Below are positions 1 to 64,000 of a stretch of DNA of 64,000 nucleotides, piece after piece. Position numbers and translations under genes: made by a program. This DNA comes from Fistulifera solaris (Eukaryota): the NCBI GenBank assembly GCA_030295235.1, contig AP026128.1, positions 1 to 64,000 on the forward strand, in the 5' to 3' direction. The stretch's first letter is position 1. Each line of letters opens with the position of its first letter. Below the pieces are notes generated by a model, which was not told the DNA's origin, did not search any database, and saw only the letters and a list, made by a program, of their open reading frames with translations.

Positions 1-468
1 CTAACCCTAACCCTAACCCTAACCCTAACCCTAACCCTAACCCTAACCCTCCTAACCCTAACCCTAACCCTAACCCTAACCCTAACCCTAACCCTAACCC
101 TAACCCTAACCCTAACCCTAACCCTAACCCTAACCCTAACCCCAACCCTAACCCTAACCCTAACCCTAACCCTAACCCCAACCCTAACCCCAACCCTAAC
201 CCTAACCCTAACCCTAACCCTAACCCCAACCCTAACCCTAACCCTAACCCTAACCCTAACCCTAACCCTAACCCTAACCCTAACCCTAACCCTAACCCTA
301 ACCCTAACCCTAACCCTAACCCTAACCCTAACCCTAACCCTAACCCTAACCCTAACCCTAACCCTAACCCTAACCCTAACCCTAACCCTAACCCTAACCC
401 TAACCCTAACCCTAACCCTAACCCTAACCCTAACCCTAACCCTAACCCTAACCCTAACCCTAACCCTA
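1..468. repeat. Telomeric repeat array (CCCTAA)n, i.e. TTAGGG telomere
   Basis: Near-perfect CCCTAA tandem array from the window start, with a few CCCCAA variants and one CCCTCCTAA irregularity near 47-55. Confidence 0.99.
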
Positions 469-503
469 TTTGTGTGCAGATGTGAAATTCATCCACAATA
501 TTA

Positions 504-1005
504 TTGCGGCTGGGCGTAATAATTTCACATTCGCGGCGCTTCGCAATTAGTGGCGCTGTTAATGGTTCCGATAGTGCATCGACGCATGTCGTAGCCGAGT
601 ATAGCCGGAATGATACATATTATTTGGTGGGAGAGAACTTTGCTTATGATTATGATGCAGGGCGTGATTTTGTTAGCGAAGCTCAAGTCACTATTGACGG
701 TGTTGTTTGTCAGGATTACTTCATTGAAGATAACTGCGAATTTATTGACTGTCGCAACGCTCCTAATGGAGAGCTGTATGACAATATTCCTAATTATCAA
801 TCCAACCTAAGTCATCCTCTCTATGTCTTTGATAACGAGGACAATACGATTTGCCCCGGTCAAGGCTTTGACCAGTACTACGACGACGATTACTACGACA
901 CGACCGCATGACAGCCCCAGCACAACAAATGATGATTCTTTCACAGCGGATGACGACACTCCCACGATGAATGATGATATTCCTCCTCAGGAGGACGCAC
1001 GATAA
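504..1005 (+). CDS. Hypothetical acidic (D/E/Y-rich), possibly secreted protein; probable frameshift near 905
   Basis: 135-aa ORF 504-911 with protein-like composition and a hydrophobic N-terminus; the D/T-rich tail appears to continue in ORF 823-1005; start uncertain. Confidence 0.5.
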
Positions 1006-46655: not shown

Positions 46656-47116
46656 TTGCAGTCATTCCATTGTAAAAACGCAAAGAGAAGAGAGTATGAG
46701 ATTCTAGTTTCGTATTTAAATCGAGTTGCTGAATTGGGCCATTTCGAGTCATTAGGCCTGTCCCTTGCTCGTTATGGGGCGGGAGTTCGATTCGGAGAAA
46801 TCCGAGCATGTTGCAGATGCAATCATTGGTGCAATCATCGCCAATCGGAAGCTGGCTTCAATAGATCTGAGCGAAATTCATTTTCTCTTCTATCCCACAA
46901 GCTTCTTTGATCGGATTCTCCAGTCAATGGAGGGGCATGAAGGACTTCGCACTGTTATTGTGAAAGCCTACCCATTTGTGTACAAGAACGCAGACTACAT
47001 TACAGATCTTCGATATGACGAAGACTCTTTGACGATTCTTCAAACGAAGAGGACTTTTCCGCACTCGAGCGACTGCTGTCACGCAACAGAAACATCGTTG
47101 TTCTTGACAAATATGG
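46656..47116 (+). pseudogene. 5' part of an RNI/LRR-like family gene interrupted by the outer LTR element (appears 5'-truncated)
   Basis: YLNRVAELGHFESL...NRKLASIDLS...HEGLRTVIV...LERLLSRNRNIVVLDKYG runs into the LTR; continues at 59139. Confidence 0.7.
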
Positions 47117-47343
47117 TGTTGAGAATAAATCCCTTATTTCAATCACTAGTCTCACCAATTCTATCAAACTACCACAATAGAATGAATGTATGGTCTTTAC
47201 TAGATTATCATAAAGAAGTGACAGCAACGGCTGCTGCTGCTGTTTCTTCCCTCAGCCACTGGTGTCCTTTTTGGTTCCGCGTCCGGGCTTTCCGCGCCCG
47301 GGATTCAAATCACTCATGACTGGATTCACTTTTTTTTCCAACA
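47117..47343 (-). repeat. 3' LTR of outer element (227 bp)
   Basis: TGTTG...CAACA; near-identical to 58913-59138; preceded on the minus strand by CACCACAGGAGTG (PPT position). Confidence 0.95.
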
Positions 47344-47975
47344 CACTCCTGTGGTGCAGCTTCAAGCCTTCTCTACATGCTGCACCAAACCTTTCTTGCT
47401 TGCTAAATCCTTCGACTTAGTCTCCTTAGACTTTCCTTTGTCGTTTGCTACCACTCCCATTATCTGATCCCCGAAACTTAGTGAACAGACCACCTTGGAG
47501 CGGCTTCGTCATATAGTCCCCAATCATATTTCCTGTCGGGCACCAATCCACCGATACTTCTCCCTGAGCAATCCTATCTGTGATGAAGAAATACCGAACG
47601 TTAATGTGCTTCGTGCGTTTACCGCTAGAAGCCTTGCCATTCTTTCCAACAGAATAGCACTCTTGTTGTCTTGATACAACACATTGTCAACGACGTCGTA
47701 GCCCCGCGCTTTCATGAAATACCGAGTCCAGCAAATCGCAGGCATGAAATCATCAACACCAATAATCTCCGCTTCCGTGGAGCTCTTTGCATTCAACTTT
47801 TGCTTGGTAGAAGTTACAATCGGGAAACCTCGCCCCAACGACAATCCACCACCCGAATGCCCGCGCATATTTGGATGCACTGCAAATGCAGCATCCACCC
47901 ACCACTTCAAGATACCCGATCCATTGGCACTCAAAATCAACGGTAGGTCGCATGTACCGCGAAGGTAGCGCACCA

Positions 47976-48488
47976 TGACAAATTCCGGGAGCGCACAGAT
48001 AGCTCACCCGAAACGAATCTTCAAAACAGTAATCGAGACTGAAAGAAAGCTTGTCTTCAGGAGACAGGATGCGATAGAATAGAGCGAACAAGGAAAGTCG
48101 AGGCAAACCAAATTCACTATTGTTATTCATGTGAGACTGCAAAAGAGGGCGGAAATGAAGTCAAGATCTTGTGAACTTGAACCAAATCTTGTCGACGTCG
48201 ACACTTGACCAGTACTATGCCGTCGTAGACTTAAACATAACTTCCTTAGCTCTGGTACCAACTTATACGTCACGTAGAACACTATACCACACACTACGCA
48301 CACCTCTGCGACGTGTCAAGAGAAGAACTTGCACATGCACCAAACTTCCGATGACGTGTGCGGAAGCGAACCCCAAAAGATACCATGAGTACCGGATACA
48401 CAAACTCACTATCACAAAGACAGTAAGTACACTCCACACACACTAGGAGTCCCGAATACTCATGACCAGAACTAAATATAATTTGACA
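47976..48488 (-). repeat. 3' LTR of inner element (513 bp)
   Basis: TG...CA termini with an imperfect 9-bp inverted repeat; matches 54405-54915 except for a small indel. Confidence 0.96.
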
Positions 48489-48504
48489 CTCCCCGTCTTC
48501 TCGC
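48489..48504 (-). other. Polypurine tract of inner element
   Basis: GCGAGAAGACGGGGAG directly before the 3' LTR on the minus strand. Confidence 0.85.
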
Positions 48505-51500
48505 AGACACGGTCTCCAATCCAAATCCAAACCAATTCAAACCAAACCCCATCCCTGTTTGCCTCGCTCAGACATATAAACATGTAAAACCAGTCAACAC
48601 ATAACCACAAATATCACTCGACACCTTGGAATCCTGAACTAGTCTTCGATCTCCGAGGTGTCACCCATCCTAAAACAACACAGCCTTCAAACGCGGCCAG
48701 ATCTGCGAGTATCCCCAATGCTTACTGAGAATATCGGCCGGGTTCATGTCGCCAGGGATGTGAAGGAAAGCAATCATACCAGACGCAATTGCCTCACGAA
48801 CTCGATGAAAGGAAAGCATCGTGTGACGCTTGTGAAGCTTGGCATGAACTTGCGTCAGCTGTTGACAACCGATTGATTGTCGCCAAACATATAGGCCTTG
48901 TCTCGAATAGGAACACCCAAATAGCGAAGTGTGTTTCGAATGTCGATGATTTGTTCAACACAAGTCCTTGCAGCGACGAACTTCCGGATCCATACGTAGC
49001 CGTCTCGACAGTAGCTTGCTTCTTGGAATACCAATCGATCGGCCGTCTGGTTAAGGAAATGTAGAATACCAGTCACAGATCTCCCCGTAGCCACGCAATG
49101 CATCAAGTTCGCATCGACATAATGCGTAGAAACAACTGCCTTGCCGAGAGGTCCAGGAGCATCATGGGGAACAACCTCTTTCACGTCACCGTAAACCGAC
49201 TTGGACCAATCGTACTCAAAATTAGGTAGATCGGACAAATCAGGAACCCCTGTACGAAAGCGAATGGCGGCGTTCCGCATCTTCGAAACGTATCCAAAGA
49301 TCCGCTTAACGCGATCCAAATGACCCTTAAGCGGGAGCAGAACGAAACGCGGACATCGTCATAACAGCAGTCATGATGTCGAAGCGCCCGATACTGATCA
49401 ACCATTGCAACGAACCAATCAAAGACTGGTAATCTCGAGTACCTTTCTCATCCAGAAACTCTGAAGTGTCCAATTCCGGATGATCGCCCTTTTCTAACGG
49501 GGTGAAGTGACATTCTGTTTCGGCTGACTCCCGTACATTCGTTCGTGAATTCGCGATGATCTTTTCGGTGTATTTCTTGGGAGACATGCAAAGAGTACCA
49601 TCCTTGTCACGAGTGAAGTCCATTCCGAGATGGAAACTGACTGGGCCGGTTCCCTTCAACTTGAACTTGTACTCTTTCGTTAGCAAGTCGACAAACGCTT
49701 GAGGATCCTTCATCGCTAAGGCCAAATCATCAACATAGACCGCAACATACTCGTAAACATCTTCGTTGCGTCGTAGCCAAATGTAGGGATCGGCCTTGCA
49801 TTGTTGAAAACCCAATTCGCATAACGTCAGCCAATCGATCGGCCCATTGCACGCTGCTGGTACGTAGTCCGTAAAGGGCCTTGCTGATAAGAAGAATATG
49901 ACCAGCCAATTCCCCGAACTCAGGTCCAGCCTCAATGTAGACGCGTTCGGAAGTAAACGCTCGAGATAGGCATTGCCGATGTCGGTAGCCCAGAACTTGA
50001 GAGAATTAAGCTCGGCAAGAAAAGTAACCAGACGGAAACTCCGTAAACTGACAACGCCGGAGTAGACAGACTCAGTAGGGATATCGGTTAAGTGTCCGTC
50101 TGCCACCAGTCGAGCCTTGTGACGTCCGTCGTGCTTGACGTCAAAAACTAAGTGGACGCTGAATTTTCTTGTAACCTTGAGGAGGCCTCCCAACCGACTT
50201 GTGACCTAAATCCTTGAAGGTCTCGTACTCTTGAATTTGAAGCAACTCTAAGGCAACGGCATCCTTCCACTTGGTGTTCTTGTTTTGCTCGTCTAGGCGC
50301 ATCGCATGTGCATAGTCTCGGGGAATTTCGAAACCATACTTGTATCGCGGAGCCGTGTTGTAGGAGCGAAGCTTAGCATGGTTCACCAACCGGACGAACT
50401 TCTTGTGTCTTTTTTGCGATGGACTTGAATCTTTTCCAACCGGGAACATCCAAGAGGTTATTTTCCTTGGCATAAATAGCACAAGTCACAGGGTCATCGG
50501 AAGCAATAACATTTAGAGGCTCAGCTGTGATCTCCCCGTTCTCCCATTCGATCAATACATTGTAGGAAGAACCTTTGTAGTCGAGATCTCCATCTTTAAG
50601 GGGACCTTGATGCGAAATGATGTGCTTGAACTTCCAAACAGGGGCATCCGCGTCTCGAGCTAGGTATGCCATGATCTGGGCATAGCTGAAAACTTCTTCG
50701 GCTTCGGATTCTCCAACCTTGCACACAAACTTGATTCGTTCTGGTACTCGTTCAACGGAAGAATCGAAATCGTTGACGAGACGTGCAATCTTCGCTCGGT
50801 GTTTCTGACCATCAGAAGCCACATCCGTCAGAAACGTTCGACCAATCAAATCTTCGACATCAACGAGCGGTGGAGGAGGAGGCACGGTCGCTGCGTCGTC
50901 GGAGGGCTGAGAGAAAACGAAATTTTCTCTGTGACTGAATCCTTGCGGGACAGGATGACAGGAGCAGAAGTAGTAGAAGACATCTCCCCGGCAGCCTGAG
51001 CGGCGCGCAAATTAGGGTCGTCCTCAGTGTACGGACGAACGGAAGATCGGCAAATGACTGTCTTGGTGTCAGCAGTGAGAATCTTCCAGCAAAGAGCGGG
51101 CCCAACATGTTCGGAAATACCGACGATATTGCCAAGGCCTTCAGGAGAATCAGAAGGGAAACCGTAGTCGTGCTTCAAATACAAAACACGTTGCCAGAAG
51201 TAGAAGCGCCAAAAGAACGCTAACATCAGGAGTCAAACCCGTCAACGCCAACAACGGAACAGTCTTCAAAGTTTGATTGTACGTGTGGTTTAGGAGGAAG
51301 CACACGTATTGAAGACAAAGAAGCCACGTAGAAGGCGGCGCGCCGGTACGGTCTAAGATGCGGTTGGCAGTATTCTTGATCGTCTGGAAACGGCGTTCGG
51401 CAGGGTTTTGTTGCTGTTGGTGGGGCTCACTTTGCCACGCGCCGATACAGAAAGTACGAAGAACGTCTTGAACCGCGTTGCTGATCAAAACTTGAGCGAT

Positions 51501-54390
51501 CGCTAAGGAGACGAGTTGGGGCTCCCCGTTCGCGAATATTGTCTTCCAAGGTCCGAATGAACTGGCTATCCGTCTTGATACCATAAACATCGGTAACCAT
51601 GGTATCATAGCCAACAAAGATAACGGCAGACTTGTACCCATTGTCAATAGCCGGTGTATTGGCGTGAGACGATATCACAGGCGGCTTCGGAACGACGATG
51701 AACATTGAGAGCCGGATTTGAAGACTTGAAGGCAGCGCTTGAGAAGAGTGCTTCCAGGGAGAGGAAGGCGAGCATACTGGGTGGTTCTTGATCAGATCGT
51801 TGGAAATCCAGCCAAAGTAAGGACGGAGTCGACCTAGATCCGGGTCTTGGCGCTGAATAGTACGTGGGCGTGACGGGAAGGGCTTTCACGGGTGGTCCAG
51901 TCACGCCGTCGTCGTCATCAACATGGCCTTGTGCGACAAATTCGTTGTTGTAGACCTCGAAGTGGCGGGCAATAGCCTGGAAAGCGGCGGGCTCAATACC
52001 GTAAGCTTCGTGGCTTAACTCGATGATTTCGTCAAGGGCCGGAAAGATCGGGAGGAAGGGCGACGTGGGCAAAAACGGCGATCTTCGATGTCCATACTAT
52101 CTCCGCGATGGTAGTCGCCGAATTCGTCGAAGAGGGGACGAGGATCTTCAAGATCGAACGTGTCGCTGACGCGATCGAACCAATCATCTTGATCGTTAGC
52201 ATGATCGAGAACAGAAGGATCCCAATCGAGAAAGCTCGTCATAATGACGTCGCGGGAGAGAAACGCCATTCGTCGTCGGGTAAACGGACGAATAGGAAGG
52301 CGAGCGAGTCCCTGTTGAACTTGAAGAGGGATCACGTAACCGTCGAGAGTCGCGATGCACTGCCGCCCCGCCCACGTGGATAGACTTGTCATCGACAACG
52401 TTCTTGAAGTGCTCCAACTGTCCGGAAGCGTGAATGGTAGGGCCTTTTCCATACAACGCGTACTGGTTGAAAACAGCTATGACCGGTCCGTGTTGCGTGC
52501 GCACTATCGCCAACAGTACCGAGTTCGAGATCGGTCATCTGATGGTTGTCGATGCCTTGAATGTTGACACGCCCGATGGGGAAAATCCTTGTGAATGACT
52601 CGGACGTCACAGCCGGCAACACCACCGTTGGCACCGCGATCGAGTAGCGAATCCACAGGAGAAAACGTGTTGAAGGGACGCGATACGTCGTCAAAGTGTT
52701 AACTTGACGACTCGAATTGTTCTCGCGAAGAACGAGACAGAAGGCGAATATCGTGCGGGGCCAGAGTAGAACTAGAGCGAGCGGCATTCACAAGCACGGT
52801 AGACTCACCATCAAGCACGGCACTTGGAGGATCTTGAGCAGCATCATGAAACTCTTCAGTAGGTTCCGGAGGGGAAGAGTCGTGAGATGCAATAGGGTCA
52901 AGGTCGTGAAACTGCACCGTGCGACGGAGGATGGACGGACGACCGGTCTGAGTCATGGAATGCGTGTCACGATTTCCGCCATTGACATCACGTCCGGGAG
53001 CGGAAAGCAAACCAAGAATGATGGCTTTATCGCGATCCGCCAAAGAATCCCAAATTTGACGCGCGTCATCGCTCAACTGGAACCAACGTTAAGCGGCATT
53101 CGGCGTTCTAGGAGCAGACCCAGTTGAAGGAGAACCACGGAATCCAACAGAACGCCGGTCAGTAGCATTAACTTGCCACTCAGAAACAGGAACATCGGAG
53201 TCCACAAGATAACCAGAAAGGTCAACTTCCCCAGTACCGGCCTCATCATAGAAATCGGAAGCATAAGTCTCATGGAAGTTAACAGTACCGACAGCGAGAC
53301 TTGCGTTTGGCTTGTTCTTCAACTGAGACACAGCGGGAAATCAAGAGAGCGCAGTACTGCTCGAAAGTTAACTCCGTTCCATTCTTGGTCAACTCCAAAT
53401 CAGCACTAGTTTTGACCTGACGGAACTCAGCGACAGTACTAACAGCATTCTCAAGTAGGATTCGCTTGTGCTTATCGGAAAAGGGGTCACCGGACATGCG
53501 CTCATAACGGCGAACTTGCTCAATCCAATCATGCACGGATCCAGATGCAGTACCACCACGATGACCTTCTCCATAACGAACGGAAGTAATGTAGGATAGA
53601 ATCGTTGCCGAATCCATCTGGGCCTTGGTAGACTGTAGGTGATGGCGCTTCAACGCTGCATAGACCTTTTGGGCGTCGTAAGTGTCTTCGTAGTCGCGAA
53701 TAAGGGCTTTTCCTTGGTCCGTAAGCACCTTACTCTCCAAGGCGAGTAGAGAAACTTCTGTTTTCGTCGAACAACTCTCTTCGTCTTCAGTAGTAGGGGC
53801 ATAATCCTCGTTGAGCACCTCTTCCACATCTTGAGCTCGGGCCTGATTGACAAAAGAACGATGCCAGGCCGTTGAAGCTCGTCCTTGAGAGTAGGAAAGA
53901 GAGAAGGATCACGTTTAATACCACGCTTGAAAAGAGCTGCGGGAGACATTCCCTCGCGCACGGGATGCAACAGGAGGGGGAACAGGAACCCCGGGGGCCT
54001 CGAGGTTGTTCGCGATCGAAAACGCGTTCGGGGCTTAAGCGGAACTCATTGAACCCGTCTTCAGTGACCGCCAACCAGTCATCGATCGGGTCACCAGAAC
54101 GACCACGATGAGACACAAACTCGAGGAAGGCATACAACAAAGTCTTATCACCACGAGCGACTGGGAAGTTTTCGCCCGGCCGTTCGCGAAACTCAAGACT
54201 TCCGATGTCCAAAGGACGTAACTCGAGGAGCAAGTAGATGTCCAGAAACCCTCGCGGACACCAACGCTTGCTTAAGAGTAGAATCATCACCACGGCCAAG
54301 GACATTGTCCATCACGTGGTTGAAAGCGGCCCAGCGATTGAGCTCGAGAGAGAACCATGGCGGGACGGAAAGCGAACTTGAAAGCGAAAC

Positions 54391-54404
54391 TGCGACTGTT
54401 AATC
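54391..54404 (-). other. PBS of inner element, complementary to the tRNA-Asn(GTT) anticodon arm
   Basis: Minus strand GATTAACAGTCGCA abuts the 5' LTR; its complement TGCGA-CT-GTT-AA-TC has anticodon stem-loop form. Confidence 0.75.
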
Positions 54405-54915
54405 TGACAAATTCCGGGAGCGCACAGATAGCTCACCCGAAACGAATCTTCAAAACAGTAATCGAGACTGAAAGAAAGCTTGTCTTCAGGAGACAGGATG
54501 CGATAGAATAGAGCGAACAAGGAAAGTCGAGGCAAACCAAATTCACTATTGTTATTCATGTGAGACTGCAAAAGAGGGCGGAAATGAAGTCAAGATCTTG
54601 TGAACTTGAACCAAATCTTGTCGACGTCGACACTTGACCAGTACTATGCCGTCGTAGACTTAAACATAACTTCCTTAGCTCTGGTACCAACTTATACGTC
54701 ACGTAGAACACTATACCACACACTACGCACACCTCTGCGACGTGTCAAGAGAAGAACTTGCACATGCACCAAACTTCCGATGACGTGTGGAAGCGAACCC
54801 CAAAAGATACCATGAGTACCGGATACACAAACTCACTATCACAAAGACAGTAAGTACACTCCACACACACTAGGAGTCCCGAATACTCATGACCAGAACT
54901 AAATATAATTTGACA
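54405..54915 (-). repeat. 5' LTR of inner element (511 bp)
   Basis: Direct repeat of 47976-48488. Confidence 0.96.
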
Positions 54916-57900
54916 CACCAGATGAACCAACTTTTTCCAATCATCTTTGTCTGGTTCCCGAACTCGCGTCGTCAAAAACGCGATTGCCGTACACGTATCT
55001 GGGCGTGCTCTTTTGGTAGCATACAATATCTTTGCCACCAGATTATGAAATTCCACCGCTTTATCATGCGGTAGTTTCTCCGCCTTTTCATCAACTCGGA
55101 AAAGATTTTCTGGAGCCGCTGTGTTCTTTGTTCCGCCACCTTTTGGCTCAGATTTGTCAAACGCAGCAATGATCTCTTTGATGTAATCAAACATACTGAT
55201 CTTCACCTGGCCAGCTTCACTAAAGTCCAACTTCATTCCGAGATAGTCGTGGATCTTTCCCCTGCTGACAGTCATCTTTCCAGATCCGTCTTCGAAAATA
55301 CTCGTATTCCTTACGAAGCCAATCGATCATGTCATCCACACACGATTTCTTTTTGTGACTCACTTTACAGTCATCAACATGGAAGCATATTGTCATTTGC
55401 TCACCATCGATCATCTTATTGGCCACACATGGATCATACGGATTCAACTCGAACCCGATACGCAACAAACTGCCAACGAACTTTCGGTAATACAACAGAC
55501 TGGCCACCATTGTACCGTAAAGCGCATTCAGACACTGGACTAGCAACTGCTTGTCCCCTTTTCTGTCAATAGTAACAAAATCTTTGTAAACGTCTGGAGC
55601 AATGTCGACCAAAATATCAACCAAAACTCCCCGGATCTTAATGTAGACCATATCTTTCTCGTCCTCAACCCGCGTCTGAATAAACGCGTTTGGAATATCA
55701 ATGATGGCTACCTCTCTTCCTTCCTCTGCATCAACAATGCAAGTCAACAATACAGACTCGGTAGCAACCGTCGGCGAACTGGCATCCTCTTTAGAAATGT
55801 AGTCACGCTGTTTGTTGCCACCTGCCACGGTACGCCCCTTTGATGTCACCGCAGCGTTTTCTTTTTTAGGAACATGTGGGATTCCAACACTTTCATTCTT
55901 TGTTCCGGTGTCAGATCTTTCCAATGCATTGGCTTAAACGTGTTCCGGAAATGCAACTGCTTCATCTCCCGAATAAGCTGCCAAGTATGCTTTCTTTCCC
56001 CACTCTTTTAATCCCGCCTTAAGCGACAACTGTGTCATGATTGCTGCCACTATGTTAGTGTCGGCCTGATAGAAAGCTGTTTGTTGAAACATATGCATAT
56101 CGGGGTACTGAACTCCATCAGTCTCCAACTGGGTTACGGCATACGCATACCGAGCTCCACTAGAATGGCTCGGGATATATGCCTTGGGTGGCATCCGATT
56201 TCTGGTCGAACGCCGAAGTTCCGGTACTGCCGCAGCTACCGGTGCTGCTATGGTAGACTCAGCGGTTTCAAGTTGCACTGGGTCTGGGGCTGGAGTGCTG
56301 TCGAGATCATGAATTCCGACTTCCGTTCGCGTTTTGGGGGGCTCAAACGGAGCCTCCTCCTCGCTCACTCCTGGGAGCTCGACATCATCTGAAGAGACGG
56401 GCTCACTCGCTGGTGCAGCATCAAGCTGCGAATCATCCAATCCTGGGACGATAGGGTCCTCAAATGGTTAACACTGGTGAAACAGATTTTCCGACTGAGT
56501 GTCAAAAGAATGGAATTCCATTGACAAAGAAAATGTCAATTGCAAGAGTCACATCTCGATGCAATGACAAAAGTTCCGTGGGAATCTTTACAAAGTCGCT
56601 GACCACCGGAACTGGCTTCTTCCGAACGGTCTTTCCTTTAAGTGCGGCAATGTCTTTTCCCCAAATTTGGTGCGCTGTCTCAATATCTGCCGCCGTCACT
56701 GGGCAGTCTTTGATTTGATTGCTTTTAACAAGCCACTTAAAATCCTTTTCCGAAGGATACTGTAGCGCTTCATAGAGATGCCGTGCGGCCTTCGCTCCCT
56801 TAACTTGTCTAGCCGAGAGACCCTCCAAGTTCTCTCGCGACTGTTTCAACAAAAGCAAATCCTTTCACTTTCATTGGAGCGTACACGTGAAGACCACTTG
56901 CGTGCATTTTAAACTCCATATTCGACTTTCCTGGTCGATGGACAACAAACTTTCCTTGTAAGCTGTCGACGTAACTCGATACAGCTTGATCAAGTTCTTG
57001 AGAGCAATAATGTTAGTAATGGCTCGGTCATCAAACCAAACCTCTTGCTCGTATCCCGCCATGGTCGCTTTCTTTGTTACTTTCATTGTTCCACCGTTGC
57101 TTTTAAGTTGCATGACTTCCTTTGTGTCGCGAACGTTCGACACAAGTTTACGGTTGCAGAACAAATCCATCGTGGACTGACTGTCCAACAGAATCACCTT
57201 AGTGAGGTCGAAACGGCTTTTGTTGTGACTCTGCTTGAATAATGTAGCGATCCTTGGCATAGGGTCATCAACTTGCGTGAAATCCATGTGCAAGCTCCTC
57301 GAACTGAAAATGTGGACGTCTCTTCTTCCGACTCAGAAAGATCAGAATCGGCCTCTTGTAGCGCCTTCAACTGCGTGTTCACACTTTCGTACTTCTTTTG
57401 CATCTTTTTCATTTCGTTGGTGAGTTTCTTAACGCTAGATGCAGTCGACTTTACGGACTTCTCGTCGCCGTCTGACTTCGACTTGTCCTTTCCTTTTCCT
57501 TTTTCCTTTTTATTCGGACAGCTCCAGGACGGATGTCCCACTTCCCTCACAAGCGTGACACTTTTTATCTGCCCAATATTTCTTATCAAAGTCGCCAGTT
57601 TTGCCTTTCCCTCCTTTCTGAGCGAATGCAGTCCCCTCGGACTCAACCGGCTTCTTAATAACACTCTTGGTATACTTGTCCAACAAATGTAGGGTTTGCT
57701 GGCGCTCGTCGGATACTTTTGCTCGCCCGTAGTGAACTCGTCCTTCAAGTCACCCTGTAGCTTAGCGTGTTGTTTTCCGCTCTGTCTGAGGAACATGTAC
57801 GCTATGAACCGCTCCTCTTGATCTTTCACAACCGCTTCCTGCTCGTCTTCCGATAAATCATAAAACGATTTTCCGTCATATGACTCTTTGGCAACATACT

Positions 57901-58898
57901 CAAGTAGGCCCTCGTGTCTGAATGACATGCCCACGGATCTCGCCACATCGATTTTTGTGTTGAACCTCTCGTACCACTGTGCATTGGACATCGCATCCTG
58001 CTGAAATCCACTTAGCGACAACATTTGTTCATACACGGTTGCAAACGGGTACTGATCCTCCGTCTCGCCAACACGGTCTTTGTAATCAGCCTGTACAATG
58101 CGATAGGATCAAAAGAATTGCTGACTGTCTCCCACGACATATCCTGTTTCATTTTGTCCATCAGCAGAGGAGTACACTGTCCCTCAATCAAGCTGTACGA
58201 CTTTCCACGATGCAGCTGTAGCTTGTCCATACGATCCCTGTATGTGTGCCACTCTGCCTTATTGTGTGCCGCTTCCTCCCGGGCGTCAACTCTGGTACAA
58301 TAGGCTGCTCCGCCGCAAAATCAGCTTGAGCAATTTCGTTCTCTAACTGTGCCAGCCGCATAGGAGCTTCAAGATTGGCTCCCGTTGTATCGGCTTCAAT
58401 CATGCGCTGCAACAACTGTCTTTGTGCCCTCGCGCGTTCTGTAGGTTTTCATGGGCCTGTCTCAAAATGCGCTCCCTCACTGCATTCCTCTCCATAATTT
58501 CCTCACTGTACACCGGTTTTGGGATGATGACCGGTCTCAAATGCAGTAGCTCATTGCAAATGTCCTGCCCATAAGTCGCTCCCACGTACTGAGTGATCTT
58601 CGTCCAAGTAGTTCTCATCAGATCGGCCGAATTCTTCTGTCCATAATCGAATACATTCGAACCAAGTTCGGCACAATTGCCCTTTTTCACAACGGCTTTC
58701 GAACCGCTGTAGTTTTGTCCTCTTCCGCTCGCTTTTGGCCACGACCTTCCTTGCCGCCACCACGCTGCTCTGCCTCCTCTCCCAGTCATCCGTTAGCTGA
58801 GAAAATGAGAAGGTAAACGATAAATGCCCCGATGACTCGGTGGCTGCCTGTCAATATGACTTTGCACCTCTGTTGTTACTTACACGGCTCTGCCGATG

Positions 58899-58912
58899 CT
58901 TCTTTATGATAA
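58899..58912 (-). other. PBS-position sequence of outer element, complementary to its own LTR (59001-59014)
   Basis: + strand CTTCTTTATGATAA (58899-58912) is the exact reverse complement of TTATCATAAAGAAG (59001-59014). Confidence 0.85.
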
Positions 58913-59138
58913 TGTTGAGAATAAATCCCTTATTTCAATCACTAGTCTCACCAATTCTATCAAACTACCACAATAGAATGAATGTATGGTCTTTACTAGA
59001 TTATCATAAAGAAGTGACAGCAACGGCTGCTGCTGCTGTTTCTTCCCTCAGCCACTGGTGTCCTTTTTGGTTCCAGCGTCCGGGCTTTCCGCTCGGGATT
59101 CAAATCACTCATGACTGGATTCACTTTTTTTTCCAACA
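58913..59138 (-). repeat. 5' LTR of outer element (226 bp)
   Basis: Direct repeat of 47117-47343; TGTTG...CAACA. Confidence 0.95.
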
Positions 59139-59375
59139 GGCGAAGTGTGCACCAATGGGTCCAGTATTGATGAGTTGTATGCCCTGAATCGCTTCTATAA
59201 TGGATCGGCATCCTCGCTGCAAGAATCTACCTTTTGGCGGGCATCGCTAATAAGCACGGCATTGACAACAGGCGCCTTGAATAATTTCCAATATACAGCA
59301 CTGCTGCTCTCTAATCATGTGGACATGTTGTTCGATTATGTTCAAGCTCTGGATCTTTTGCTAGTCTATTCTTAA
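59139..59375 (+). pseudogene. 3' part of the interrupted RNI/LRR-like family gene
   Basis: GEVCTNGSSIDELYALNRFYNG...FQYTALLLSNHVDML; in frame with the 5' part once the element and a duplicated GG are removed. Confidence 0.75.
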
Positions 59376-62560: not shown

Positions 62561-64000
62561 GCAGTTATGTTTTTAAGCTAGTGAAATATTCTTTCACGCC
62601 GCATAAAGCTAACAAGCAGTGGACAAGCTCGACATCTTGAGTTGAAAATCGCAACGAAGCATAATCACCAATGTATTCAAAGATGCTCTGCCGCCAAAGA
62701 GGGCTGATCTCAAAGTATGGTGATTATATTGCAGTTTAAAATCGTCGCCTGTCCGTCTATAGTTTTGATTCGTTCGATTAATTTAATGGATTTATGATGC
62801 AACGCGGCAGGCAAGTCTTAAGTAAATAATAGAACGCTAACAAGATATGGGTAGAGCACTATCGATTGATTCAATGGATATCGCAATTTATATTCTTTCA
62901 ATGAACATGATACAGACATTAAAACATCTCATCTGTATTGGTATGTGGCCCTCTGCGGCGCCGCATCTATACAATGGCTATACAGTACTACTGCATCGCC
63001 TGGAAAGAATTTATGTGTAAATACCATATGTTTTGAATAACTGGTTTTGACCAACGGCAAAGCGGATAGCTACGAGATACTGAATTGAAGGGTATCAACG
63101 AATCGATTCTTAGCACTCCCGCTACAATTTGATGTGCGTGCATGGTATCCTCACTTGCTAATCAGGCCATAAAGAAATTGACAGGTAAAAGGACATGAAA
63201 ATTGCGACACCATCGTTTGCCTGCTTATCAAGCGTCGTCTTGTGACAATCGGTTGCTTGGGGCAGATTACACGAGACAATAAGGCAGCCATCTCCCCGAC
63301 CGCTTAATCTTGCCTTCGCATAGGCTTTAGGGGCCTTATCATTTTCATGGATTTCGGAGCTGGGATATTTCTTTTGTAAGCCTTTTCATGTTTTTTGTAA
63401 TTAGTCCTGTAAGACTTCGGCGCAGATTTCACCCATTCTCAAATATTTCCCAGGAATAATTTAATCGAAACCTTTGCTTGAAAGCTGCTCGAAATGGTTC
63501 TAGATTACACAGATACCGACCTGGCCACTTAAAGACGACACCTTCGCTTCATCAAGAAATCGCTCTTATACACCACATTTCAGGTTGCCGAAACAGCATG
63601 CTTTTACCAAATCCTATCTGTTATCTCGAGATGGTTCCCGGTCAGCCAATGGGATAATCTTTGGATGCAGCCAGTTTGAATCAGTTTCTAGAGGCTTCTA
63701 TCAAGTGAGCTAAACCTAAAACGTGGATAGGATTTAAAAATCCAAATTTATTTATAAACTTCTTTATGACTGGAGGCTTACAAAGTTTTCAATTTAATTA
63801 ACAAGTGTATGGATACTTTCAATATAAATAACTTTGGATGATTTCCCCATTCTCAATTTTTTCGCAGAAATAATTCAGTCGGAATCTTTGTTTTAAGGCT
63901 GCTCGGATTGAAATGAAAGCATACAAAACCGACTTGAAAAGTAAGGCAACACCTTTGCTTTATCGTTCTATTGCCAATATTTCTCGGTCTTGCTCACCAT

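What the first reader, a model, noticed from the sequence alone, without database searches (positions are those of the whole stretch)
58899..59020. Copia retrotransposon with a Tf1-like self-priming architecture instead of a tRNA primer site
Seen: directly after the 5' LTR (element sense ...CAACA|TTATCATAAAGAAG) there is no TGG and no tRNA-like sequence. These 14 nt (15 with the LTR terminal base) are perfectly complementary to CTTCTTTATGATAA inside the LTR at 59014-59001. That segment begins immediately after an initiator-like TCA(+1)CTTC, with the A at 59015. The enclosed loop can fold further: CUAGU/ACUAG, ACCA/UGGU and AUUCUAUUG/UGAUAGAAU at 58942-58999. Established: fission-yeast Tf1 (Ty3/Gypsy) primes minus-strand synthesis with the first 11 nt of its own mRNA annealed to a PBS abutting the LTR, released by RNase H-dependent cleavage; Ty1/Copia elements normally use tRNAs. 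Inference: this diatom Copia lineage may self-prime. I know of no such report for Copia, but I could not search the literature.
Basis: partly seen in the sequence, partly recalled or inferred. Interest (0 to 1): 0.92.

Follow-up and report, generated by a model that had tools for sequence, protein, structure and literature searches.

The report
Self-priming Copia retrotransposon clade
A Copia-type jumping gene has, where a tRNA primer site should be, a sequence that pairs perfectly with a stretch inside its own repeat, and this pairing is kept in dozens of relatives although its letters differ, so the element most likely primes its own copying as fission-yeast Tf1 does.

Summary
The 15 nt at 58913-58899 (last LTR base plus 14 nt) pair perfectly with 59014-59000 inside the 226-bp 5' LTR. 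None of 20,000 LTR shuffles reached 14 nt.

I fetched 79 related metagenome loci (RT 59-85% identical). They hold 34 perfect inverted repeats of 12 nt or more, and all 34 sit at the same LTR-end junction, none elsewhere in 360,546 nt. Counting the window, there are 28 different arm sequences. In an alignment of 21 elements, 12 of 15 pairs show compensatory changes. Of 27 loci where the junction could be tested without reference to the repeat, 23 have it. The duplex always starts at, or 1 nt after, the A of a conserved CA (27 of 27).

A primer site this variable cannot match one tRNA, so self-priming is the best reading (about 0.8).

The transcription start is unmapped. The novelty claim fails: self-priming was already predicted for plant TAR-lineage Copia (PMC6317226). 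"Diatom" is unverified. I file this as a new member of a known kind.

The parts
58913..59138 (-). 5' LTR of the outer Copia-type element (TGTTGG...CAACA, 226 bp)
   Evidence: Direct repeat with 47117-47343. A 227-nt short-read contig of run X1 covers exactly 58913-59138.
59000..59014 (-). Putative self-primer, 5'-CUUCUUUAUGAUAAU-3'. It is inferred to be the first nucleotides of the transcript (start of R).
   Evidence: Upstream arm of the 15-nt perfect inverted repeat. The homologous arm is present, with a different sequence, in 33 related loci.
59015..59017 (-). Initiator-like TCA, with A at 59015. It is inferred to be the transcription start and is not mapped.
   Evidence: Among the distinct arm types, 27 of the 27 with upstream sequence have CA here. 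In 16 the A lies just before the duplex, and in 11 it is the first paired base. The sequence further upstream is not conserved.
58899..58913 (-). Primer binding site for the self-primer: the last LTR base (A, 58913) plus the 14 nt that follow
   Evidence: Downstream arm of the inverted repeat. No TGG is present. 12 of 15 pairs covary in the alignment of 21 elements.
58914..58999 (-). 86-nt loop, the rest of R plus U5. It includes a short second helix, CUAGU (58999-58995) with ACUAG (58946-58942).
   Evidence: Minimum-energy fold. Helix 2 is 77% paired across the 21 elements, with G-C changed to U-A in 5 of them.
54921..58912 (-). Internal region of the outer element: gag, protease, an integrase-like part and RT. 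The RVT_2 match lies within the 55220-55933 reading frame.
   Evidence: Pfam RVT_2, E 7.6e-12. The reading frames are broken in the window, at places where short-read contigs differ by 1-2-nt indels.
47976..54915 (-). Second, unrelated Copia-type element nested in the outer one. Its LTRs are about 511-513 bp and its target duplication is TGGTG.
   Evidence: Direct repeats and alignment. Flanks.
47344..47970 (-). 3' internal part of the outer element (RNase H-like end and polypurine side)
   Evidence: Continuation of the outer reading frames beyond the nested insertion.
47117..47343 (-). 3' LTR of the outer element. It carries the same primer segment but no complementary site after it.

Best explanation
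What it is. This is a Ty1/copia-type LTR retrotransposon that starts minus-strand DNA synthesis with a piece of its own RNA rather than a tRNA.

Proposed mechanism. The transcript is thought to begin at the A of TCA (59015). [quoted passage not shown] A cut at the loop side of the upstream arm, made by the element's RNase H in Tf1, would leave a 3'-OH paired with the first PBS position. Reverse transcriptase would then extend through U5 and R to make strong-stop DNA.

Why the pairing stays perfect. If plus-strand synthesis copies the retained primer, the PBS of the progeny is rewritten from the primer. That would explain why primer and PBS stay perfectly Watson-Crick complementary while drifting apart between families.

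What is shown. The pairing exists. Its position is exactly at the LTR end. It is conserved, with compensatory changes, across a clade whose RT is 59-85% identical to the window's. No TGG-type site is present. The duplex begins at a conserved CA.

What is inferred. The transcription start, the cleavage, the priming itself and the primer-copying step.
For: 1. The 15-nt perfect inverted repeat abuts the LTR end. None of 20,000 shuffles reached 14 nt.

2. Position in relatives. I fetched 79 related metagenome loci (600 pattern matches, 464 confirmed relatives, best 80 kept). They hold 34 perfect inverted repeats of 12 nt or more (loops 30-250 nt) in 33 loci. All 34 have their downstream arm at ...CAAC|A or ...CAACA|, and none lies elsewhere in 360,546 nt.

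3. Sequence variety. There are 28 different arm sequences including the window, each perfectly complementary over 14-16 nt. L011 shows only 12 nt because the contig starts inside the arm.

4. Denominator chosen without reference to the repeat. Of 27 loci with a gag N-terminal match and at least 450 nt upstream, 23 have the repeat. Counted by gag match, it is 24 of 29.

5. Covariation. In an alignment of 21 elements, the 15-bp helix is 99.4% paired and 12 of 15 pairs have changes on both sides (71 cells). None of 500 shuffles reached the observed values. Versions with the partner slid by 1-3 columns gave 38-53% pairing across. RNAalifold, run independently, predicts this helix and no other.

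6. Matched changes between close relatives. Two copies on one contig (L016) differ by a matched T/A change in both arms. L008 and L025 differ by a matched 1-nt deletion in both arms.

7. No real G:U pair occurs in the helix. The two U-G cells come from a MAFFT gap in L008. This fits a site that is copied from the primer better than a merely structural helix.

8. The duplex starts at, or 1 nt after, the A of a conserved CA in 27 of 27 assessable arm types, while the sequence upstream is unrelated even between elements with identical arms, such as L020 and L051.

9. The trait occurs on both halves of a quick RT tree.

10. The arrangement meets the published criterion for predicted self-priming (PMC6317226, methods passage). 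It also matches the Tf1 geometry described in PMC7175516 (passages).
Against: 1. The transcription start is not mapped. One 216-nt contig (depth 2.6) from an RNA-seq metatranscriptome (X6) spans 58819-59032, which is 18 nt upstream of the predicted start. It could come from DNA carry-over. It could also be a de Bruijn join of a 3' U3-R end with a 5' R-U5 end.

2. Four of 27 testable loci lack the repeat. L029, L031 and L039 are one family. L033 has a group-2-like site after CCAACA but no matching upstream arm.

3. The sequences in the covariation alignment were chosen because they carry the repeat, so the percentage paired is partly by construction.

4. The two extra duplexes of the Tf1 'pretzel' structure were not recovered.

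5. Host tRNAs could not be compared. No genome is held and the window contains no tRNA gene.

6. Self-priming has not been shown by experiment for any Copia element that I could find.
Confidence: 0.8

Rival explanations
1. The pairing is a conserved RNA hairpin with another role, such as packaging, dimerisation, translation control or shielding of the 5' end. Reverse transcription would then be primed by something else.
For: Covariation proves a selected pairing, not priming. Retroviruses and Ty1 also have functional structures in the 5' leader (background knowledge). The Tf1 pretzel was not recovered.
Against: Minus-strand DNA must start at the U5 end, and the only conserved feature there is this duplex. 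No TGG or other conserved candidate site follows the LTR in any of the 28 arm types. The duplex abuts the LTR end to the nucleotide in two subgroups whose loops differ in length (61-99 nt and 130-174 nt). The complete absence of G:U pairs is unusual for a purely structural helix.
Confidence: 0.13
2. The site binds a host tRNA, a tRNA half or a tRNA fragment, as in copia, Ty5, Osser or Bianca. The match to the LTR would then be incidental.
For: Half-tRNA priming without TGG is known in Copia lineages (PMC6317226 passages). Host tRNAs could not be checked.
Against: The site differs at 12 of 15 positions among relatives, and each version matches its own LTR perfectly. One tRNA cannot fit 28 different sites. 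None of the 28 starts with TGG.
Confidence: 0.03
3. The match is due to chance or to an assembly artefact in the window.
For: The window's copy shows many small indels against short-read contigs.
Against: None of 20,000 shuffles reached 14 nt. Contigs of run X1 cover both arms, and no difference inside either arm appears among the differences that one search listed, though many more were not shown. The same architecture recurs in 33 independent metagenome loci.
Confidence: 0.01

Closest known systems
Tf1/Tf2 of Schizosaccharomyces pombe and the Tf1/sushi group (Ty3/gypsy chromoviruses), where self-priming is shown by experiment
   Same: Neither has a tRNA site. [quoted passage not shown] For Tf1, the first 11 nt pair with the PBS and RNase H cuts between nt 11 and 12 (PMC7175516 passages).
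   Different: The superfamily differs: the RT here is Pfam RVT_2 and lies near the C-terminus of the polyprotein. The duplex is 14-16 bp rather than 11, and in the main subgroup it includes the last LTR base. The two flanking duplexes of the Tf1 'pretzel' (bioRxiv 10.1101/2022.12.06.519325 passages) were not found. Instead there is a short helix inside the LTR. Cleavage and priming are untested here.
Plant Ty1/copia TAR lineage (including Houba and Osr-1), where self-priming is predicted
   Same: Both are Copia-type elements with a complement of at least 10 bp to the 5' LTR starting 0-5 bp after it (PMC6317226 passages).
   Different: The relatives of this element come from marine, freshwater, sediment and wetland metagenomes, not from plants. 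Phylogenetic relation to TAR could not be tested because no reference sequences were at hand. The supplements of that paper, which list the predicted primers, were not read.
Fungal GalEa Copia elements with a Conserved Hairpin Site
   Same: Both are Copia elements without a tRNA site that have a conserved paired structure at the expected PBS position (PMC5445492 passages).
   Different: In GalEa the hairpin is local and highly conserved in sequence, and the authors found no complement in the LTR. Here the partner lies in the LTR and the sequence varies freely.
Copia lineages primed by a half tRNA (Osser, Bryco, Bianca; copia and Ty5 from recall)
   Same: Both are Copia elements with no TGG directly after the LTR.
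   Different: Those sites are conserved because they match a tRNA anticodon arm (PMC6317226 passages). The site here is not conserved.

Membership tests
Self-priming LTR retroelements (mechanistic class defined by Tf1) | No tRNA-type primer binding site after the 5' LTR | tested here: met
   No TGG at 0-2 nt after the LTR in the window or in any of the 28 arm types. The site varies at 12 of 15 positions. A direct comparison with host tRNAs was not possible.
Self-priming LTR retroelements (mechanistic class defined by Tf1) | A sequence starting 0-5 bp after the 5' LTR that is complementary (10 bp or more) to a segment inside the 5' LTR | tested here: met
   14 nt after the LTR, 15 with its last base, 100% complementary. 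The same holds in 33 related loci. Criterion taken from PMC6317226.
Self-priming LTR retroelements (mechanistic class defined by Tf1) | The complementary segment is the very 5' end of the mRNA | not testable with these tools
   Only contigs were available, so no read starts could be seen. Indirect support: a conserved CA at the duplex start in 27 of 27 arm types. Weakly against: an RNA-library contig reaches 18 nt further upstream.
Self-priming LTR retroelements (mechanistic class defined by Tf1) | RNase H-dependent cleavage of the duplex to release the primer | not testable with these tools
   This needs biochemistry or cDNA-end sequencing.
Self-priming LTR retroelements (mechanistic class defined by Tf1) | Three-duplex 'pretzel' structure around the primer-PBS duplex | tested here: inconclusive
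   RNAalifold finds only the central duplex, with or without 60 nt downstream of the site. The loops align poorly. A 4-5-bp helix next to the duplex is 77% paired.
Tf1/sushi chromoviruses (Ty3/gypsy), as a phylogenetic family | Gypsy-type RT with integrase and chromodomain downstream of RT-RNase H | tested here: not met
   The RT matches RVT_2. In relatives with intact frames, about 1,120-1,310 aa lie before the RT match and only about 310-360 aa after it.
Ty1/copia (Pseudoviridae) | Copia-type reverse transcriptase | tested here: met
   Pfam RVT_2 at E 7.6e-12, 45.8 bits against a cut-off of 31.6. The same family is found in relative L025 at E 2.8e-13.
Ty1/copia (Pseudoviridae) | Integrase encoded upstream of RT | tested here: inconclusive
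   Pfam and PDB sequence searches found no integrase. The region before RT has invariant D, D and E residues (D71, D128, E160/E168 in alignment A7). A low-confidence model (pLDDT 53) gives only weak Foldseek hits, mostly retroviral integrases, with best E 0.01.
Ty1/copia (Pseudoviridae) | LTRs ending TG...CA with a short target-site duplication | tested here: inconclusive
   The TG...CA ends are present. No duplication flanks the outer element: TCGCC on one side, CCATA on the other.
Plant TAR lineage of Ty1/copia | Placement within TAR in RT/RH/INT trees | not tested
   No TAR reference sequences were available in the collections searched.
CoDi (diatom Copia clades) | Placement with the CoDi reference elements of diatoms | not tested
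   No CoDi references or host genome were at hand. The CoDi paper (PMC2806351) contains no passage on primer sites or tRNA (term search).

The most novel reading that the evidence does not exclude
A large clade of Copia elements from aquatic eukaryotes, not previously described as such, uses self-priming that arose independently of Tf1/sushi and of plant TAR. In this clade each family carries its own primer-PBS 'barcode'. The barcode diversifies because the PBS is rewritten from the retained primer in each replication cycle. This would free the elements from host tRNAs. It would make them invisible to any defence aimed at tRNA-type primer sites. It would also prevent cross-priming between co-resident families.
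Probability: 0.3. Interest if true: 0.65.

Novelty: new member of a known kind. Interest (0 to 1): 0.5.

Why it matters
Self-priming has been shown by experiment only for Tf1-type Gypsy elements. For Copia it is a sequence-based prediction limited to one plant lineage.

This finding adds a second Copia clade, which the samples suggest is not from plants, with unusually clean comparative support. There are 28 different primer-PBS pairs, all perfectly matched, all placed at the LTR end, and all starting at a conserved CA.

It suggests that doing without a tRNA primer arose more than once, or is old, within Copia. It also yields a simple searchable signature for annotating such elements, which tRNA-based PBS finders would report as having no PBS.

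The absence of G:U pairs, together with matched indels in both arms, is a testable footprint of the PBS being copied from the primer.

Tried and rejected
1. Whole genome of the window: none is held. Host tRNAs and other copies could therefore not be examined.

2. tRNA genes in the window: none found.

3. RT as a single-protein query against genome contigs and viral contigs: pattern matches only, no confirmed relatives.

4. Mapping the start site with public runs: all four runs laid were contigs, so no read starts were available. X4 and X6 hold only small parts of the stretch. The habitat labels of the small-share runs were not used.

5. Host taxon: two atlas look-ups gave only 'Eukaryota' or nothing useful. 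Earlier findings of this scan held nothing.

6. Poly(A)-tailed contigs among the 79 loci, which could have given the end of R: none found.

7. Pretzel-type flanking duplexes: not recovered.

8. Integrase by Pfam, PDB sequence search or PDB profile search: nothing. The structure model was of low confidence.

9. Group-2 alignment A5 (7 sequences): MAFFT put the arms out of register, so I did not run pair counts on it and read the arms instead.

10. Relaxed search (G:U and mismatches allowed) in the loci lacking the repeat: nothing at the junction. A search for longer-range complements in L031 also found none.

11. The Tf1 primary papers (PMC1369541, PMC109269, PMC1563812) are not held. Tf1 facts come from passages in a review and in a preprint.

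12. The nested inner element was checked for the same architecture. Its best complement of the post-LTR sequence in its own LTR is 6 nt.

13. The careful tree search did not finish, so the quick tree was used.

Full report
**Anatomy**

The finding lies in the 5' LTR of an LTR retrotransposon on the minus strand. Its LTRs are 58913-59138 and 47117-47343, of the form TGTTGG...CAACA. They are 100% identical over 162 nt and differ only by three small changes in the U3-like part.

The two LTRs are 11.8 kb apart because a second, unrelated Copia-type element is nested inside. That element has LTRs of about 511-513 bp at 54405-54915 and 47976-48488, with target duplication TGGTG.

The outer element's RT matches Pfam RVT_2, the Copia type, at E 7.6e-12. 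Its reading frames are broken in the window. Short-read contigs of two runs (X1, X2) carry the same element with 1-2-nt indels at just the places where the frames break: 12 are listed and 25 more are not shown. The breaks therefore look like errors of the window's assembly, or features of this one copy, rather than of the family. Relatives have single open frames of about 1,700 aa.

**The observation**

After ...CAACA comes TTATCATAAAGAAG, with no TGG. The 15 nt at 58913-58899 are perfectly complementary to 59014-59000, with 86 nt between. This is the only inverted repeat of 8 nt or more in 58880-59140. TCA precedes the upstream arm, with its A at 59015.

In 20,000 shuffles of the LTR, the longest complement anchored at the LTR end was 11 nt. 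None reached 14.

The RNA folds at -32.4 kcal/mol (z = -4.0), with the duplex stacked on CUAGU/ACUAG.

**Relatives**

No genome is held for the window, so I looked for relatives elsewhere. The RT has 1,928 protein relatives at E <= 1e-10 among 2,088 candidates, nearly all from metagenomes.

An alignment of the window's RT with 48 of them was used to scan metagenome contigs. This gave 600 pattern matches and 464 confirmed relatives; the best 80 were kept, as 79 loci whose RT is 59-85% identical to the window's. Many contigs are circularly permuted assemblies with overlapping ends.

A scan for perfect inverted repeats with loops of 30-250 nt gave a clear result. Every repeat of 12 nt or more (34 in 33 loci, plus the window) has its downstream arm exactly at ...CAAC|A or ...CAACA|. 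None lies anywhere else in the 360,546 nt. All other inverted repeats found were 10-11 nt.

The arms are 14-16 nt. One is cut to 12 nt by a contig end. There are 28 different arm sequences, for example CTTCTATCAACTAAT, ACAATTGAAAGATAAT, CTCTTAGCTTTTAAT and ATAGTTTCGCGAATG.

Two subgroups exist. In the main one (loops 61-99 nt) the duplex includes the last A of the LTR. In the other (loops 130-174 nt) it starts right after CAACA.

**Denominator**

The repeat-bearing loci were found by looking for repeats, so I also counted on a set defined without them. The set was loci with a match to the window's gag N-terminus and at least 450 nt upstream.

Of these 27 loci, 23 have the repeat within 1,300 nt upstream. 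Counted by gag match, it is 24 of 29.

The four without it are L029, L031 and L039 (one family) and L033. L033 has a subgroup-2-like site after CCAACA but no matching upstream arm. A relaxed search allowing G:U and mismatches found nothing at their junctions.

In a quick RT tree (the careful search did not finish), both exceptions nest inside repeat-bearing clades, and the trait lies on both sides of the midpoint root. I read them as secondary loss or damaged copies.

**Covariation**

I aligned 21 of the 35 repeat rows. These were one row per arm type of the main subgroup plus L051. I dropped the truncated L011 and the duplicates L013, L016 first copy and L021. The second subgroup was handled apart.

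For the 15-bp helix, 99.4% of cells are paired. Twelve of 15 pairs have changes on both sides (71 cells), two never vary, and one departs only by an unpaired cell. None of 500 shuffles reached the observed values. Versions with the partner slid by 1-3 columns pair at 38-53% across.

RNAalifold, which predicts its own structure, returns exactly this helix and nothing else, with or without 60 nt downstream.

The percentage paired is partly by construction, since the rows were chosen for having the repeat. The informative facts are the fixed position, the different sequences and the denominator above.

Two details are telling. Two copies on one contig (L016) differ by a T/A change matched in both arms. 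L008 and L025 differ by a one-base deletion matched in both arms.

No genuine G:U pair occurs. The two U-G cells are an alignment-gap artefact in L008.

**Start of the duplex**

In all 27 arm types with upstream sequence, the duplex begins at the A of a CA (11 types) or one base after it (16 types). Upstream of this CA the sequences are unrelated, even between elements with identical arms and loops, such as L020 and L051.

This is what a U3/R boundary with a pyrimidine-purine initiator would look like. It is inference, not a mapped start.

**Mechanism**

The simplest account is Tf1-type self-priming. In Tf1 the first 11 nt of the RNA pair with the PBS, and RNase H cuts between nt 11 and 12 to make the primer (PMC7175516, passages).

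Here the geometry is the same. The loop-side end of the upstream arm pairs with the PBS position next to U5, so a cut there gives a 3'-OH that can be extended through U5 and R.

A tRNA or half-tRNA primer is excluded in practice. The site differs at 12 of 15 positions among relatives, and each version matches its own LTR.

A purely structural role for the hairpin remains possible. It leaves the element without any candidate primer site at the one place where minus-strand DNA must start, and it does not predict the lack of G:U pairs.

If the primer is retained and copied during plus-strand synthesis, a change in the primer would be written into the PBS of the progeny. For Tf1, I saw only the title of a cited paper saying the self primer is not removed (reference list). 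Such copying would explain perfect complementarity, matched indels and rapid divergence between families. This step is my inference.

**Evidence against, and gaps**

- The start site is unmapped, because every run available was held as contigs.
- One 216-nt contig of depth 2.6 from an RNA-seq metatranscriptome covers 58819-59032, which is 18 nt upstream of the predicted start. DNA carry-over, or an assembly join of U3-R with R-U5 reads, would both give this.
- The two flanking duplexes of the Tf1 'pretzel' (bioRxiv 10.1101/2022.12.06.519325, passages) were not found. Only a short helix inside the LTR next to the duplex has some support: 77% paired, with G-C changed to U-A in 5 elements.
- Host tRNAs could not be compared.
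- Integrase upstream of RT is only weakly supported.

**Comparison with what is known**

The element works like Tf1 but is not a member of the Tf1/sushi group, which is Ty3/gypsy.

Within Copia, self-priming is already in print as a prediction. Neumann et al. [quoted passage not shown] Their criterion is a complement of at least 10 bp starting 0-5 bp after the 5' LTR (PMC6317226, passages; supplements not read).

Fungal GalEa Copia elements lack a PBS and have a local conserved hairpin with no LTR partner (PMC5445492, passages).

For diatoms or CoDi elements I found no statement on priming:
- The CoDi paper has no passage on primer sites or tRNA (PMC2806351, term search).
- The two papers holding 'self-priming', 'LTR retrotransposon' and 'diatom' mention diatoms only in passing.
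- The search listings for CoDi, diatom and primer binding site, for self-prim, copia, Tf1 and LTR, and for primer-binding site, diatom and retrotransposon showed nothing relevant.

These searches cover only the held open-access library.

**Host**

The host is a eukaryote: the window holds kinase, ubiquitin hydrolase and TAF9-like genes. Relatives come from marine, freshwater, sediment and wetland samples. That it is a diatom was not verified.

**Verdict**

It is far beyond chance and is conserved with compensatory change across a clade. Self-priming is the best explanation (about 0.8).

The claim of a first for Copia does not hold. This is a new member of a known kind, most likely a new self-priming Copia clade outside plants, with the start site and the priming chemistry still to be shown.

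Noticed in passing
window 47976-54915 (minus strand): A second Copia-type element is nested in the outer one, with LTRs of about 511-513 bp and target duplication TGGTG. The sequence after its 5' LTR has no TGG, and its best complement in its own LTR is only 6 nt, so its primer is unexplained.
   Followed up: partly
window 59139-59143 and 47112-47116: The outer element has no target-site duplication: TCGCC before the 5' LTR and CCATA after the 3' LTR. Contigs of run X1 show the 5' junction directly and the 3' flank as a matching loose end at 58913. This may reflect recombination between two copies.
   Followed up: partly
window 54925-59138: The window differs from the short-read contigs of runs X1 and X2 by many 1-2-nt indels (12 listed, 25 more not shown). 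These coincide with the frame breaks of the element. The short-read LTR matches the window's 3' LTR version.
   Followed up: partly
L016:1205-1308 and L016:7663-7774: Two copies of one family lie on a single contig, about 90% identical. They differ by one T/A change in the primer arm, matched by the complementary change in the PBS arm.
   Followed up: yes
L008:1994-2102 and L025:572-680: These are closely related families in which a one-base deletion in the T-run of the primer arm is matched by a one-base deletion in the A-run of the PBS arm (14 nt against 15 nt).
   Followed up: yes
L029, L031, L039 (one family) and L033: These relatives have a gag match and enough upstream sequence but no primer-PBS repeat. 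L033 keeps a subgroup-2-like PBS after CCAACA. Both families nest within repeat-bearing clades in the quick RT tree.
   Followed up: partly
L015 and L016: In this family about 1.05 kb separate the PBS from the gag match, against 0.1-0.45 kb in the other families. This could be an extra leader or an extra reading frame.
   Followed up: no
window 3-560: A long tandem array with a 12-nt period (31 or more overlapping copies reported) lies at the start of the window.
   Followed up: no
window 63432-63496 and 63846-63910: A 65-nt direct repeat, 80% identical, with copies 414 nt apart.
   Followed up: no
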